Part shown: positions 21,001 through 24,000 of the stretch, in pieces | How the letters are laid out: each line of letters opens with the position of its first letter | Numbering within the stretch: the first letter of the stretch is position 1 | Virus record (IMG/VR): IMGVR_UViG_2740892233_000024 | Length of the DNA: 24,564 bases | Origin: a virus | Taxonomy: Duplodnaviria; Heunggongvirae; Uroviricota; Caudoviricetes | Direction: 5' to 3' (one strand) | Made by a program: the position numbers

Positions 21001-24000
21001 GTAACAGAAAAATTGCAGGTAAGACACTGGATCGCCTGAAGACGTTAATCTGGCTGGCTGCACAGGATGTGAAGAGCGAACTTGCAGGGCGTGAGGCCTA
21101 TGAATACCAGACACTGGCATCATTGGTGGGAGTGACAACAAAAAACTGGTCCGAGACATTTACTGAACGCTGGGTTGCAATGAAGCACATTTTTCTACAG
21201 CTTGATAGTGATGCTTTATTGCTTGTGACGAGAACACGTTCAAAACAAAAGGCAGCATTTTTACAGCAAAATATTGCAAAACTGGATTAAAAGCCATATA
21301 CTTCATGCAAATTTGGTATGTTGTAAAAAATGTATAAACCCGCTGCCGAGTGGGTTTTTTTTATGCCCTGAGTTGTACTTGTACGGTAAACATGCTGGCT
21401 GCTATGTAATAGAGTTTTTTTAGCCTGTAACCTCTTGACGGCATTGAATTGCTTTTGTTATGAGTTGTAAGCCAATGTTATCATCTTGTATTGGGGTGGT
21501 TATGAAGGATGGTGCGCTGCTCAGGAGTTCTTCACTTTTTATTGCCTACATGGGATGCCTTGGATGGGGGAGTGCTTATTTCTATGGATGGGGTACTTCT
21601 TTTTACTACGGCTTCCCATGGTGGATTGTAGGTGCAGGTGTTGATGATGTTGCCAGAAGTTTATTTTTTGCAGTTATCGTCATTGCTATATTTCTTATCG
21701 GTTGGGGTATTGGTGTTGTATTCTTTTTCGCAGTGAAAAGAAAACATTCTATGCAAGAGCTAAATGTATTTCGCCTTTATTTTGCTGTGGAATTATTGTT
21801 TGTGCCGGCAATTATTGAGTTTTCTATATTGAGACAGAAGATTCAGGTACCTCTTTTGCTACTGTCAGCAGCGATTGCGCTGGCGGTTACAATTTCGATA
21901 AGATCTTATGGGCGATTTTTATCGGTATCATGCTTCTATGATAAGCCATTTATAAAAAAACATTTTTTTGAGATTGTGATGATTGCTTTTGTGGCATATT
22001 TTTGGCTTTTTTCATTTCTGACAGGATATTACAAACCACAGTTTAAGAAAGAATATGAAATGATTAATTATAATGATGGTTGGTATTATGTTCTTGCTCG
22101 TTATGATAATTGTCTGGTTTTGTCTACTTCTTTCAATGCAGGTAGTAAAAGGTTTGTCATTTATCAATCAGCACAAGATAAGAATCTTCAGGTTGATATT
22201 GTAAGGACCAGAATTTAATTGGCTGCATAAATAATATTTTAAGTTGCAAGTTGGCTATTCGTAGGAATAGAACCTTAGGCATGCTGAATGCGTTTTCTGA
22301 ACATTGTTTTATAAACTGTGTCTGCTTGCTGTTGTGATCCTGCTTTTAGTGATGGTGATGATGGATTTCACCAGCAGGATAATGTTGGTACTGACTGATG
22401 GCGCTCTGGTCTGCGGCATTGTGGTATTGCTGTGGCCGATGATGAAAGAACAGAATGAATAATTCTTGACTTTTTTGTTTACTGTTTATTAAAAAATCAA
22501 CCGCATGGTGAATCCTCCTTGGAGGGGCTAAATGATCGAGTTTTAAGGGCACGTAGCGAGTTCTGTTTGATCATTGCAGAACTTAGCGGGAGGCGCCATG
22601 CGTACATCACTAGTGTTATTCCTTTTATCATTTTCCTTGTGAGTTCTGGCTGCGCATTGCGCAGCCTTTTTTTTATGACCTGCCACTGGCAGATGGTCAT
22701 CCTGTGATTTGATTCCGCTTCCGGCTTTTTAACTCTGTTCCTCTANNNNNNNNNNATTTCTGTTTTTCTCAAACTATCATCGTTATCCCTTTATTTTCGG
22801 CTGCGCATGGCGCGGCCTTTTTTTTACGACCAGCCACTGGCAGATGGTCATCCTGTGATTTGATTCCGCTTCCGGCTTTTTAACTCTGTTCCTCTACACG
22901 GGAGAAATTCGATGTCGATTAAACATTACGATGTTGTCAGGGCGGCGTCGCCGTCAGACCTTGCGGAAAAGCTGACACACAAACTGAAAGAGGGCTGGCA
23001 GCCATACGGCGGACCGGTTGCCATTACGCCGTACACACTGATGCAGGCGGTGGCTATTGAAGGAGAGCCACAGGTCGGCCCTTCATCTGAGCCGGATTGG
23101 TACTACGTCATCGTACTGGCCGGGCANNNNNNNNNNTGGGCTGTAGTCCCCGTGTGTCATTCAGGCTTCCGGACTACAGCCCACTCCATATCTGATTTAA
23201 TACACTATCCCGGCCGGGAGGAATAATGACATTTAAACATTATGATGTTGTCAGGGCGGCGTCGCCGTCAGACCTTGCGGAAAAGCTGACACACAANNNN
23301 NNNNNNATCCAATGCCATGGCTTACGGTGAAGGGCTTACGGTGAAGGGCTTCCGCTGCCGGATTCATACGATGCTCCGGATCCGCGCATTAAACAGCTGG
23401 CGCGCCGCAGTACAGTTACGCCGGGCGGGGCTGCCTGCAGATATAACGATATTATTCCGGCTGACCACTGTCTGCATGATGTGCAGGATATGAGTACGCT
23501 GAATCATCCGAGGGCTGACCTGAGCAAAGGGCAGTACGGCTGTGTCGGCCAGGGTTTACATATTGCCAAAAAACTGCTCCCGTATATCCCGAATAACGCG
23601 GGGATCCTGCTGGTACCATNNNNNNNNNNATGTTATTTCCTTCTATCATTTTCCTTGTGAGTTCTGGCTGCGCATGGCGCGGCCTTTTTTTTATGACCTG
23701 CCACTGGCAGATGGTCATCCTGTGATTTGATTCCGGTTCCGGCTTTTTAACTCTGTTCCTGTACACGGGAGAAATTCTATGTCGATTAATCGTTATGATA
23801 TTGGTTACAAGAAGTACCACGTATTGTGTTGAGATAGAAAGCATGGTGCCAGAGGTAAATGCAGCAGCATAATAAAAAAGAGCCAGCGCAGAAGAGAACG
23901 GGTAAAAGAGTCTGCGCTGGCGTGGGGATATTCCCCGTGGAGAAATGATATGTAACACACATCGGGAACCTTTCTATATAAACATTATCATTATTGTCAA

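What the first reader, a model, noticed from the sequence alone, without database searches (positions are those of the whole stretch)
21460..22218. Multi-pass membrane protein immediately downstream of the late terminator (Stx-equivalent slot)
A 252-aa AT-rich protein with at least four transmembrane helices and a ~90-aa C-terminal soluble domain sits where Stx phages carry toxin genes. Its size and topology do not fit a holin. Genes here are strongly expressed on induction and partly in lysogens. It is a candidate exclusion, abortive-infection or membrane-acting factor of unknown family.
Basis: inference. Interest (0 to 1): 0.7.

Follow-up and report, generated by a model that had tools for sequence, protein, structure and literature searches.

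The report
TfpB-family membrane protein moron in prophage
The gene is real and encodes a five-helix inner-membrane protein of the little-known TfpB family, which rides with its own promoter on prophages and virulence plasmids of gut pathogens; its function is still unknown, and nothing found here shows it blocks other phages.

Summary
The ORF at 21460-22218 is a real gene under strong purifying selection (dN/dS 0.05-0.08). Its start is most likely ATG 21502, giving 238 aa rather than 252. The protein has five TM helices, is predicted N-in/C-out, and ends in a ~57-aa periplasmic SH3-like beta-barrel (AF2 pLDDT 81). It sits after a Q82-type antiterminator and tR', in the slot where Stx phages carry stxAB. 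The holin is a separate gene (24101-24316).

It is not of unknown family. It belongs to Pfam PF27470 'TfpB' and PHROG 1521, both of unknown function. An identical protein is in phage 434 and about 690 of 5,426 complete E. coli genomes. Homologs include:
- the tfpB ORF in the Moraxella pilin-inversion region;
- Salmonella STM1630, next to sseJ;
- intact copies on Shigella virulence plasmids;
- copies divergent from eltAB on ETEC plasmids;
- solitary copies in Pasteurellaceae and Neisseria.

There is no match to defence, lysis or enzyme families and no solved structural relative.

Best reading: a self-promoted accessory ('moron') envelope protein that acts by binding at the periplasmic face of the inner membrane. 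Superinfection exclusion remains possible but unsupported.

The parts
20601..21290 (+). Q82-type late antiterminator Q (the longest ORF starts at 20517)
   Evidence: Pfam PF06323 E 1.7e-91 and PHROG 304. The PGAP start was mapped from L001. Phage 434 annotates it as 'Q82-like'.
21274..21302 (+). Candidate late promoter pR' (TTGCAA-17-TATACT) overlapping the end of Q
   Evidence: Consensus scan only. Its position relative to Q and the terminator fits lambdoid pR'. This is an inference.
21336..21365 (+). Intrinsic terminator (tR'-like): 9-bp stem followed by a T8 run
   Evidence: Terminator scan. A terminator is annotated at the same place in phage 434.
21435..21464 (+). Candidate own promoter of the gene: -35 TTGACG, 18-nt spacer, extended -10 TGtTATGAG.
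   Evidence: The block CCTCTTGACG...TTTGTTATG is conserved between the window and the ETEC plasmid copy, which has no phage late promoter. The scan finds a second overlapping candidate at 21455-21484. This is sequence-level evidence only.
21502..22218 (+). TfpB-family (PF27470, PHROG 1521) inner-membrane protein, 238 aa. It has five TM helices (residues 6-36, 47-78, 89-111, 116-136, 155-181) and a C-terminal beta-barrel (residues 182-238). The maximal ORF is 21460-22218.
22304..22462 (+). DUF3927 / TciB-like small membrane protein (52 aa), co-oriented and downstream
   Evidence: Pfam PF13064 E 3.4e-14 and PHROG 1470. It follows TfpB only in closely related Escherichia prophage copies, so it is not an obligate partner.
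22519..22707 (+). Small putative membrane ORF (62 aa), annotated in phage 434. A terminator hairpin lies inside its 3' end.
   Evidence: ORF list. The phage 434 annotation is CPT_434_70. Weak evidence.
22648..22676 (+). Strong intrinsic terminator (8-bp stem, 7 GC pairs, T8) that would close a tfpB-DUF3927 cassette
   Evidence: Terminator scan. It is the first copy of the 138-nt repeat D1.
24101..24316 (+). P21/S21-type class II holin with a dual start (ATG 24101 and ATG 24110). This is the actual holin of the prophage.
   Evidence: Pfam PF04971 E 2e-32, sequence read, and the phage 434 / PGAP annotation.

Best explanation
The gene encodes a TfpB-family (Pfam PF27470) inner-membrane protein carried as an autonomous accessory cassette ('moron') between the late terminator and the lysis genes of a lambdoid prophage.

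Shown here: it is a conserved, strongly selected 238-aa protein with five TM helices. Loops 2 and 4 are basic, hence cytoplasmic. So loop 1, loop 3 and a ~57-aa SH3-like beta-barrel face the periplasm. No catalytic-type residues are conserved. The invariant positions are aromatic, Gly or Ala, plus one Arg-Ser pair. The gene is AT-rich relative to its flanks. Its upstream promoter-like block is conserved in a non-phage context, and a strong terminator follows the cassette.

Inferred: it is expressed from its own promoter in the lysogen, and additionally by Q-dependent read-through after induction. It works non-enzymatically, by binding an envelope partner at the periplasmic face of the inner membrane through the highly conserved H1 / loop-1 aromatic belt (AYxYGWG...YGFPWW) together with the beta-barrel. 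It serves the bacterial host as a lysogenic-conversion or niche-adaptation factor, not phage lysis or toxin action.

Most speculative step (about 0.2 on its own): the partner is a type-IV-pilin-like protein or machine (T4P or T2SS). This is suggested by the Moraxella and Fibrobacter-like gene neighbourhoods.
For: Family membership:
- PHROG 1521 E 2e-154.
- All homologs carry PF27470, named TfpB.
- BLASTP to the Moraxella protein named 'protein tfpB': 29% identity over 220 aa, E 1e-23.

Architecture:
- AF2 model with pLDDT 80.9 and pTM 0.73: five helices plus a five-stranded C-terminal domain.
- Family-wide loop charges: loops 2 and 4 carry about 3 K+R each, loops 1 and 3 carry 0-0.6.
- Weak Foldseek hits to helix-plus-SH3-like barrels such as HIV integrase CTD and KorB-C.

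Not an enzyme, lysis or defence family:
- No hits in Pfam, NCBIfam, PADLOC or PDB sequence searches.
- The invariant columns are aromatic, Gly or Ala.

Functional gene: dN/dS 0.05-0.08.

Autonomy:
- Gene GC 36% against about 45% in the flanks, and below the flanks in 14 of 15 genomes.
- Promoter-like block shared with the ETEC plasmid copy.
- Terminator at 22648.
- The same gene is solitary in Pasteurellaceae and Neisseria chromosomes and present on plasmids.

Host-side role:
- The Salmonella copy is syntenic across three subspecies.
- By gene order it is STM1630, reported as co-regulated with SPI-2 and PhoP genes and macrophage-induced.
- Intact copies are on 106 Shigella plasmids and on ETEC Ent plasmids.

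Pilin link:
- The Moraxella copy lies between inverted pilin genes.
- Distant member P0164 is in an operon with a prepilin-type protein.
Against: - There is no direct functional evidence for any member.
- An STM1630 deletion had no macrophage-replication phenotype. Its hypermotility in one screen was not among the mutants the follow-up study went on to characterise in detail.
- The promoter and terminator are consensus matches only.
- Most copies (Escherichia, Salmonella, Shigella, Pasteurellaceae, Neisseria) have no pilin gene nearby.
- No NCBIfam model, including any pilin-accessory model in that release, matches a family member.
- The topology is predicted, not measured.
Confidence: 0.45

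Rival explanations
1. Superinfection exclusion or abortive infection. A lysogen-expressed inner-membrane protein uses its periplasmic domain to block DNA entry of incoming phages, or collapses the membrane on infection.
For: - Prophage moron position with a candidate own promoter.
- An inner-membrane protein with a small periplasmic domain is the general design of several known exclusion proteins (established knowledge of P22 SieA, T4 Imm/Sp and HK97 gp15; not tested here).
- It is a solitary gene with patchy distribution at different chromosomal sites.
- Truncated or frameshifted copies are frequent, and the promoter is inactivated in Salmonella ST313.
Against: - No PADLOC model matches.
- The periplasm-facing H1 / loop-1 segment is the most conserved part across genera. 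That is the opposite of an arms-race interface.
- Strong purifying selection and ancient synteny in Salmonella.
- Regulation with SPI-2 and PhoP virulence genes.
- Retention on Shigella and ETEC virulence plasmids and inside the Moraxella pilin locus.
- No phage phenotype has been reported. The Gifsy defence gene gipd474 is an unrelated ATPase-domain protein.
Confidence: 0.22
2. Oligomeric membrane channel or permeabiliser, loosely MscS-like: TM helices followed directly by a small beta-barrel. It would alter ion flux or envelope stress.
For: - Foldseek returns many MscS, YnaI, MscK and MSL10 chains.
- H1 is glycine-rich (G18, G21, G23, G29, G31), which could mediate helix packing.
Against: - No MS_channel Pfam hit.
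- The predicted topology puts the barrel in the periplasm, the reverse of MscS.
- The helix preceding the barrel is aromatic-rich, not a Gly/Ala pore helix.
Confidence: 0.07
3. Toxin- or effector-linked accessory factor. The gene travels with exotoxin or effector loci because it aids their expression, release or tolerance.
For: Adjacency recurs in five independent settings:
- the stx slot of lambdoid prophages;
- divergent from eltAB on ETEC plasmids;
- divergent from sseJ in Salmonella;
- abutting cdtCBA in Glaesserella and an RTX-hlyBD operon in Mesocricetibacter.
Against: - These toxins use unrelated export routes (phage lysis, T2SS, T3SS, Sec/OMV, T1SS; established knowledge).
- Orientation is inconsistent: divergent in two settings, convergent in two.
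- Most copies have only housekeeping or IS neighbours.
- The window prophage has no toxin gene next to it.
- Shared residence in AT-rich, horizontally acquired islets explains the pattern more simply.
Confidence: 0.07
4. Phage lysis accessory (antiholin, lysis-timing or spanin-like factor) transcribed only with the late operon.
For: It lies inside the late transcription unit, between tR' and the holin.
Against: - Homologs are under purifying selection in chromosomes and plasmids that have no phage lysis genes.
- There is no similarity to any holin, endolysin or spanin family.
- The prophage has its own complete holin, SAR-endolysin and spanin set.
Confidence: 0.03

Closest known systems
TfpB of Moraxella bovis / M. 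lacunata (the ORF in the Q/I pilin inversion region; namesake of Pfam PF27470)
   Same: Clear homolog: 29% identity over 220 aa, E 1e-23. The length is similar (261 vs 238 aa). The N-terminal AYxYGWG...YG(Y/F)PWW...ARSL block and the C-terminal YY(I/V)L...(I/V)L beta domain are shared. Its function is likewise unknown, as far as I could find.
   Different: The Moraxella gene lies between oppositely oriented pilin genes. The window gene lies in a prophage late region with no pilin gene in the 24.5-kb window. The original 1990-91 papers could not be read here.
Phage 434 CPT_434_68 'putative membrane protein' (OL657226), E. coli WP_001302581.1 and PHROG 1521
   Same: The protein is 100% identical, and the module is the same: YlcG, Q82-like Q, terminator, this gene, TciB/DUF3927, small membrane ORF, SASA esterase, pinholin. 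PHROG 1521 matches at E 2e-154.
   Different: Nothing substantive. Those records call the start at the position equivalent to 21475, and none assigns a function.
Salmonella STM1630 (SL1344_1560), next to sseJ
   Same: 46% identical, 238 aa, PF27470. AT-rich with its own mapped promoter.
   Different: It is chromosomal, syntenic across S. enterica subspecies and not in a prophage. It is reported as co-regulated with SPI-2 and PhoP genes and induced in macrophages. Its deletion had no macrophage replication defect and was hypermotile in one screen. That STM1630 is this homolog rests on gene order only.
Classical lambdoid morons in the late region (stxAB, bor, lom, nmpC/lc porins)
   Same: It works like them in genomic logic: a foreign-composition gene inserted between Q/tR' and the lysis or morphogenesis genes, with candidate own promoter and terminator. 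It occupies the very slot used by stxAB.
   Different: There is no sequence or structural relation. It is an inner-membrane protein, not an outer-membrane or secreted one.
Known superinfection-exclusion membrane proteins (P22 SieA, lambda SieB/RexB, T4 Imm/Sp, HK97 gp15)
   Same: Only the general design: a prophage-borne inner-membrane protein with a small extracytoplasmic part.
   Different: There is no detectable homology to any model in PADLOC, Pfam or PHROGs with such an annotation. It is larger (five TM plus a barrel), and its conservation pattern is not arms-race-like.

Membership tests
Pfam PF27470 (TfpB family) | Significant match to the family model | tested here: met
   The identical 247-aa form (P0001) and all 104 homologs carry a precomputed PF27470.1 hit. 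The family name is shown as TfpB. The model is absent from the local Pfam copy, so hmmscan could not reproduce the hit.
Pfam PF27470 (TfpB family) | Homology to the namesake Moraxella TfpB | tested here: met
   BLASTP between the window protein and P0279 (JGI name 'protein tfpB', Moraxella): 29% identity over 220 aa, E 1e-23.
Pfam PF27470 (TfpB family) | Shared architecture: about 240 aa, N-terminal aromatic/Gly block, multiple TM helices, C-terminal beta domain | tested here: met
   Alignments A1-A4 and A6 and AF2 model 2.
Pfam PF27470 (TfpB family) | Location within a type IV pilin (inversion) locus, as in Moraxella | tested here: not met
   There is no pilin gene in the window or next to the Escherichia, Salmonella, Shigella, Pasteurellaceae or Neisseria copies. 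This is a feature of the namesake locus, not of the protein family.
PHROG 1521 (phage protein family, unknown function) | Match to the profile over its full length | tested here: met
   E 2.1e-154, profile positions 1-222 of 222.
Moron (autonomous accessory cassette in a lambdoid prophage) | Base composition distinct from the flanking phage genes | tested here: met
   GC is 36.1% (GC3 30%) against 45.2% for Q and 46.6% for window 1-19000. The gene is below its flanks in 14 of 15 genomes.
Moron (autonomous accessory cassette in a lambdoid prophage) | Own promoter and terminator | tested here: inconclusive
   A promoter-like block at 21435-21464 is conserved in the ETEC plasmid copy. A further candidate lies at 21455-21484, and a strong terminator at 22648. 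These are consensus-level only, and no transcript data were available.
Holins (class II / P21 S and others) | Small (about 70-110 aa) protein with 2-3 TM helices matching a holin family | tested here: not met
   The protein is 238 aa with five TM helices and has no holin Pfam or PHROG hit. The P21-type holin is a different gene at 24101-24316.
Known anti-phage defence or exclusion proteins (PADLOC-DB v2) | Match to any defence-system protein model | tested here: not met
   Zero families at E up to 10.
MscS-like mechanosensitive channels | MS_channel domain; pore helix followed by a cytoplasmic beta domain | tested here: not met
Type IV pilin accessory proteins of Pseudomonas pilin islands (TfpX/TfpY/TfpZ) - recalled from memory as a lead | Sequence similarity to a named accessory-protein family | tested here: inconclusive
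   No NCBIfam model matched any of 36 family members at E up to 1. I could not verify that a TfpX/Y/Z model is in that release, and I had no reference sequences to compare directly.
Pore-forming colicin immunity proteins | Match to a colicin-immunity Pfam family; 3-4 TM helices, 110-180 aa, no periplasmic domain | tested here: not met
   No Pfam hit at E up to 1. The architecture also differs.

The most novel reading that the evidence does not exclude
TfpB proteins are a conserved class of inner-membrane factors that dock onto type-IV-pilin-like machinery (T4P or the T2SS pseudopilus), or another envelope machine, through their periplasmic aromatic belt and SH3-like barrel. Pathogens' mobile elements (STEC prophages, ETEC LT plasmids, Shigella pINV, the Salmonella sseJ islet) carry them because they tune surface-structure dynamics, toxin secretion or receptor availability. 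This would be a new lysogenic-conversion mechanism, and it would also explain the 35-year-old orphan ORF in the Moraxella pilin switch.
Probability: 0.12. Interest if true: 0.8.

Novelty: new member of a known kind. Interest (0 to 1): 0.42.

Why it matters
This allele is in about 13% of complete E. coli genomes, often in two copies. Relatives sit intact on the Shigella invasion plasmid, beside the LT toxin genes of ETEC, beside sseJ in Salmonella, and in the Moraxella pilin switch. Yet no member has a known function, and the predicted fold matches nothing solved or in the viral set. It is strongly constrained (dN/dS about 0.06), so it does something useful. Finding what it binds would annotate thousands of pathogen genomes. 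It would also say whether the Stx-equivalent slot of non-Stx prophages carries fitness or virulence cargo. For this scan the practical message is more modest: the finding is a catalogued family of unknown function, not a new system, and the exclusion/Abi label is unproven.

Tried and rejected
- **Local family libraries:** Pfam-A, NCBIfam and PADLOC gave no real hit for the protein or for 32+ family members.
- **Solved structures:** the PDB sequence profile search found nothing.
- **First AF2 model:** built from close homologs only, it was poor (pLDDT 59) and was not used.
- **Gifsy 'gipd474' phage-resistance paper:** it looked promising, but it concerns an ATPase-domain protein, not this family.
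- **Literature searches for 'TfpB':** these returned chemistry, anaesthesia and type IVb pilus usage, or the Acinetobacter PilB-like ATPase. No paper on this family was found.
- **Original Moraxella papers:** not held.
- **DUF3927/TciB as an obligate partner:** rejected, because it follows TfpB only in close Escherichia copies.
- **Phase variation by simple-sequence repeats:** rejected, because the genes contain none.
- **Pilin adjacency as a general rule:** rejected, because it is seen only in Moraxella and one distant metagenomic member.
- **Genome scan with the widest alignment:** it failed for lack of a conserved 7-10-residue block and was repeated with a narrower alignment.
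Full report
**1. The observation**

The ORF 21460-22218 (+) exists and reads through 252 codons. It is a real gene.
- An identical protein is encoded by phage 434 (OL657226, 'putative membrane protein') and by phage 2B8 at 98%.
- The DNA is found at 99% identity or more in 651 of 5,426 complete E. coli genomes, and in 692 overall, with a median of two places per genome.
- A search of 5.8 billion proteins returned 104 homologous clusters.
- Pairwise dN/dS is 0.06-0.08 within Escherichia and 0.05-0.07 among Salmonella subspecies.

- A Q antiterminator (PF06323, E 1.7e-91; 'Q82-like' in the phage 434 record) ends at 21290.
- A pR'-like promoter match overlaps its end, at 21274-21302.
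- A hairpin plus T8 terminator lies at 21336-21357.
- The P21-type class II holin with its dual start lies at 24101/24110-24316.
- The gene is AT-rich: 36% GC and GC3 30%, against 45-47% elsewhere in the window.

**2. Corrections to the description**

Start codon. Full-length homologs are 236-240 aa. In an alignment of the upstream DNA from five unrelated contexts, similarity begins at the ATG/GTG equivalent to window 21502. That codon is preceded by GGGGTGG. The five contexts are this prophage, a second prophage type, an ETEC plasmid, the Salmonella chromosome and an IS-rich plasmid. That block is conserved in the ETEC plasmid copy. I therefore take the protein as 238 aa (21502-22218). PGAP and the phage 434 record use 21475.

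Structure. With a diverse 32-sequence alignment, AlphaFold2 gave a usable model (pLDDT 80.9, pTM 0.73). It has five long helices (residues 6-36, 47-78, 89-111, 116-136, 155-181) followed directly by a five-stranded beta domain (residues 184-235). A first model from close homologs only was poor (pLDDT 59).

Topology. Across the family, loops 2 and 4 carry about three Lys/Arg each, and loops 1 and 3 almost none. By the positive-inside rule the two basic loops are cytoplasmic. The C-terminal domain, about 57 aa and not about 90, is then periplasmic. This holds whether or not the weakly hydrophobic, Gly/aromatic-rich helix 1 fully spans the membrane.

**3. What family it is**

The local Pfam, NCBIfam and PADLOC libraries gave nothing. 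PHROG 1521 (unknown function) matches at E 2e-154. Every homolog carries a precomputed hit to PF27470, a recent Pfam family named TfpB.

I suspected from memory that the name comes from the orphan ORF tfpB in the Moraxella bovis/lacunata pilin-inversion region, and I tested it. A search with the mid-distance members found a Moraxella protein that JGI names 'protein tfpB' (P0279). It aligns with the window protein at 29% identity over 220 residues, E 1e-23. In four Moraxella contigs it lies between oppositely oriented pilin genes. So the window protein is a bona fide TfpB-family member.

I found no paper assigning a function to any member. The original 1990-91 papers are not in the library.

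A profile search of 1.84 billion representative proteins found only 72 hits, so the family is small. No source names any other member beyond 'hypothetical' or 'membrane protein'.

**4. Where the family occurs**

- (a) *Lambdoid prophages of Escherichia, E. albertii and Citrobacter rodentium.* They carry it in the Q-to-lysis interval. One 68%-identical variant sits in the order Q, methylase, gap, TfpB, LpxR, (PmrD), NanS-p, DUF1378, DUF826, holin. That is the layout of Stx2 phages with TfpB in the toxin position. Of 50,697 phage records only phage 434 and 2B8 carry the gene, and no Stx phage does.
- (b) *ETEC enterotoxin plasmids.* Here it lies 866 bp upstream of and divergent from eltAB, with EAST1 and STb nearby, for example on pUMNK88_Ent.
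- (c) *Shigella plasmids.* 106 records include pWR100 of M90T, where the intact gene sits among IS debris between virA and the spa end of the T3SS region.
- (d) *Salmonella.* The gene is divergent from sseJ, at a locus syntenic in subspecies enterica, diarizonae and arizonae.
  - By gene order this is STM1630.
  - It is reported as macrophage-induced and co-regulated with SPI-2 and PhoP-regulon genes.
  - Its promoter is inactivated in ST313.
  - Its deletion causes no macrophage replication defect and was hypermotile in one screen.
- (e) *Pasteurellaceae and commensal Neisseria.*
  - Genera: Aggregatibacter (two copies), Glaesserella, Actinobacillus, Pasteurella, Mannheimia, Avibacterium, Gallibacterium and Rodentibacter.
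  - The gene is solitary among housekeeping genes, at a different site in each species.
  - In Glaesserella it abuts cdtCBA, and in Mesocricetibacter an RTX-hlyBD operon.
- (f) *More distant variants.* They occur in Klebsiella, Mangrovibacter and Enterobacter. A metagenomic, Fibrobacter-like operon ends in a prepilin-type FISUMP protein.

In 14 of the 15 genomes checked, the gene's GC is about 4-15 points below its flanks. No partner gene is conserved. The DUF3927/TciB-like gene that follows it in the window does so only in close Escherichia relatives.

**5. What the protein looks like functionally**

The columns that are invariant or nearly so across the family are aromatic, Gly or Ala, plus an Arg-Ser pair at the start of helix 2 and one Arg at the start of helix 3. 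No conserved His, Cys, Asp or Glu constellation suggests catalysis.

The best-conserved segments are helix 1, loop 1 (…YYGFPWW…) and the start of helix 2. These are the parts that meet the periplasmic face. Helix 4 and loops 3 and 4 are the most variable.

**6. Most likely mechanism**

Shown: the gene encodes a selected, non-enzymatic-looking inner-membrane protein with a periplasmic barrel. Its composition is foreign. Its upstream promoter-like block is conserved outside phages, and a terminator follows the cassette. It is kept in non-phage settings.

Inferred: it is a moron expressed in the lysogen, and further by Q read-through on induction. It acts by binding an envelope component at the periplasmic face, and it benefits the bacterium in animal-associated niches. 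I put 0.45 on this general reading.

The specific idea that the partner is a type-IV-pilin-like protein or machine rests on two gene neighbourhoods at opposite ends of the family, Moraxella and the FISUMP operon. Most copies have no pilin nearby, which weakens it. I give it about 0.2.

**7. Rivals**

- *Superinfection exclusion or Abi (0.22).* This fits the location, the general design, the patchy distribution and the frequent inactivation. It has no positive evidence, and it sits awkwardly with the conservation pattern, the Salmonella synteny and regulation, and the virulence-plasmid copies.
- *Channel reading (0.07).* It rests on sub-threshold MscS-like hits with inverted topology.
- *Toxin-linked role (0.07).* It is suggested by five toxin or effector adjacencies. 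Those toxins share no export route, the orientations vary, and common residence in AT-rich acquired islets explains the pattern.
- *Lysis accessory role (0.03).* It is contradicted by the conserved non-phage copies.

**8. Novelty and verdict**

The finding is real and the description is largely right. But the protein is an already catalogued family member (PF27470, PHROG 1521), identical to a phage 434 gene, with unknown function. It is not a new kind of system.

Its interest is moderate. The family is strongly constrained, structurally unmatched, and concentrated on the mobile virulence elements of STEC, ETEC, Shigella and Salmonella. A simple set of experiments (TSS mapping, topology fusions, phage and colicin panels, partner pull-downs) could give it a function.

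Noticed in passing
window 21502-22218; loci L027-L030, L044, L003, L013, L012, L031-L033: TfpB-family genes sit next to toxin or effector genes in five independent settings: the stx-equivalent slot of lambdoid prophages, divergent from eltAB (LT) on ETEC plasmids, divergent from sseJ in Salmonella, abutting cdtCBA in Glaesserella parasuis, and abutting an RTX-hlyBD operon in Mesocricetibacter. This may be hitch-hiking in AT-rich acquired islets rather than a functional link.
   Followed up: partly
window 19166-20125 (-): A lipid A deacylase LpxR-family outer-membrane protein (PF09982, E 6.8e-40; PHROG 2309) is encoded on the opposite strand just upstream of ylcG-Q, in an AT-rich patch (GC 39%). 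It is a second envelope-modifying moron, also present in phage 434. In another prophage type, LpxR (sometimes with PmrD) lies immediately downstream of the TfpB homolog (L031-L033).
   Followed up: partly
window 22648-23803: Three copies of a 138-nt direct repeat (22648, 22799, 23666; 77-93% identity to the reference copy). Each starts with the same GC-rich terminator hairpin plus T8. There are also two copies of the 5' end of a DUF1737 (NanS-p type esterase) gene at 22912 and 23226.
   Followed up: partly
window 22746-22755, 23128-23137, 23298-23307, 23621-23630: Four runs of exactly 10 N interrupt the DUF1737/SASA esterase region, so this part of the window is a gapped, probably collapsed assembly of a multi-copy prophage segment. 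The esterase gene cannot be read intact here. It is 1.85 kb and intact in phage 434, and frameshifted in strain E2865.
   Followed up: no
window 22304-22462 (+): A DUF3927 / TciB-like 52-aa membrane protein (PF13064; PHROG 1470, 'TciB-like inhibition of cell division or resistance to colicin') lies directly downstream and is co-oriented. The functional label traces back to an unverified annotation of phage P1 tciB.
   Followed up: partly
about window 18950-19025 (from L001 3653-3724) and 20467-20586: RefSeq annotates a truncated N-terminal fragment of another antitermination protein right after ninH, followed by LpxR, ylcG and the complete Q82-type Q. This is a mosaic junction where a whole LpxR-Q-TfpB late-control module appears to have replaced the original Q. 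The phage 434 record marks the same area as the '434B nonhomology' region.
   Followed up: no
locus L007 (JAIITD010000172.1): A 3-kb contig binned as a Veillonella sp. MAG carries a 100% identical copy of the gene plus the DUF3927 neighbour. It is almost certainly a mis-binned Escherichia prophage fragment.
   Followed up: no
window 24101-24316 (+): The holin has the classical dual-start motif (Met-Tyr-Gln-Met...), giving 71-aa and 68-aa products as in phage 21 / 933W pinholins. The mechanical ORF list extends it to a GTG at 24056.
   Followed up: no
loci L004-L006 and L026: Divergent family members lie beside site-specific recombinases: a truncated IS110/DEDD-type gene about 1 kb upstream on a Rep3 plasmid, and a resolvase/invertase immediately downstream in Mangrovibacter. 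This is reminiscent of tfpB lying in the Piv-inverted segment of Moraxella. I did not test for inverted repeats or invertibility.
   Followed up: no
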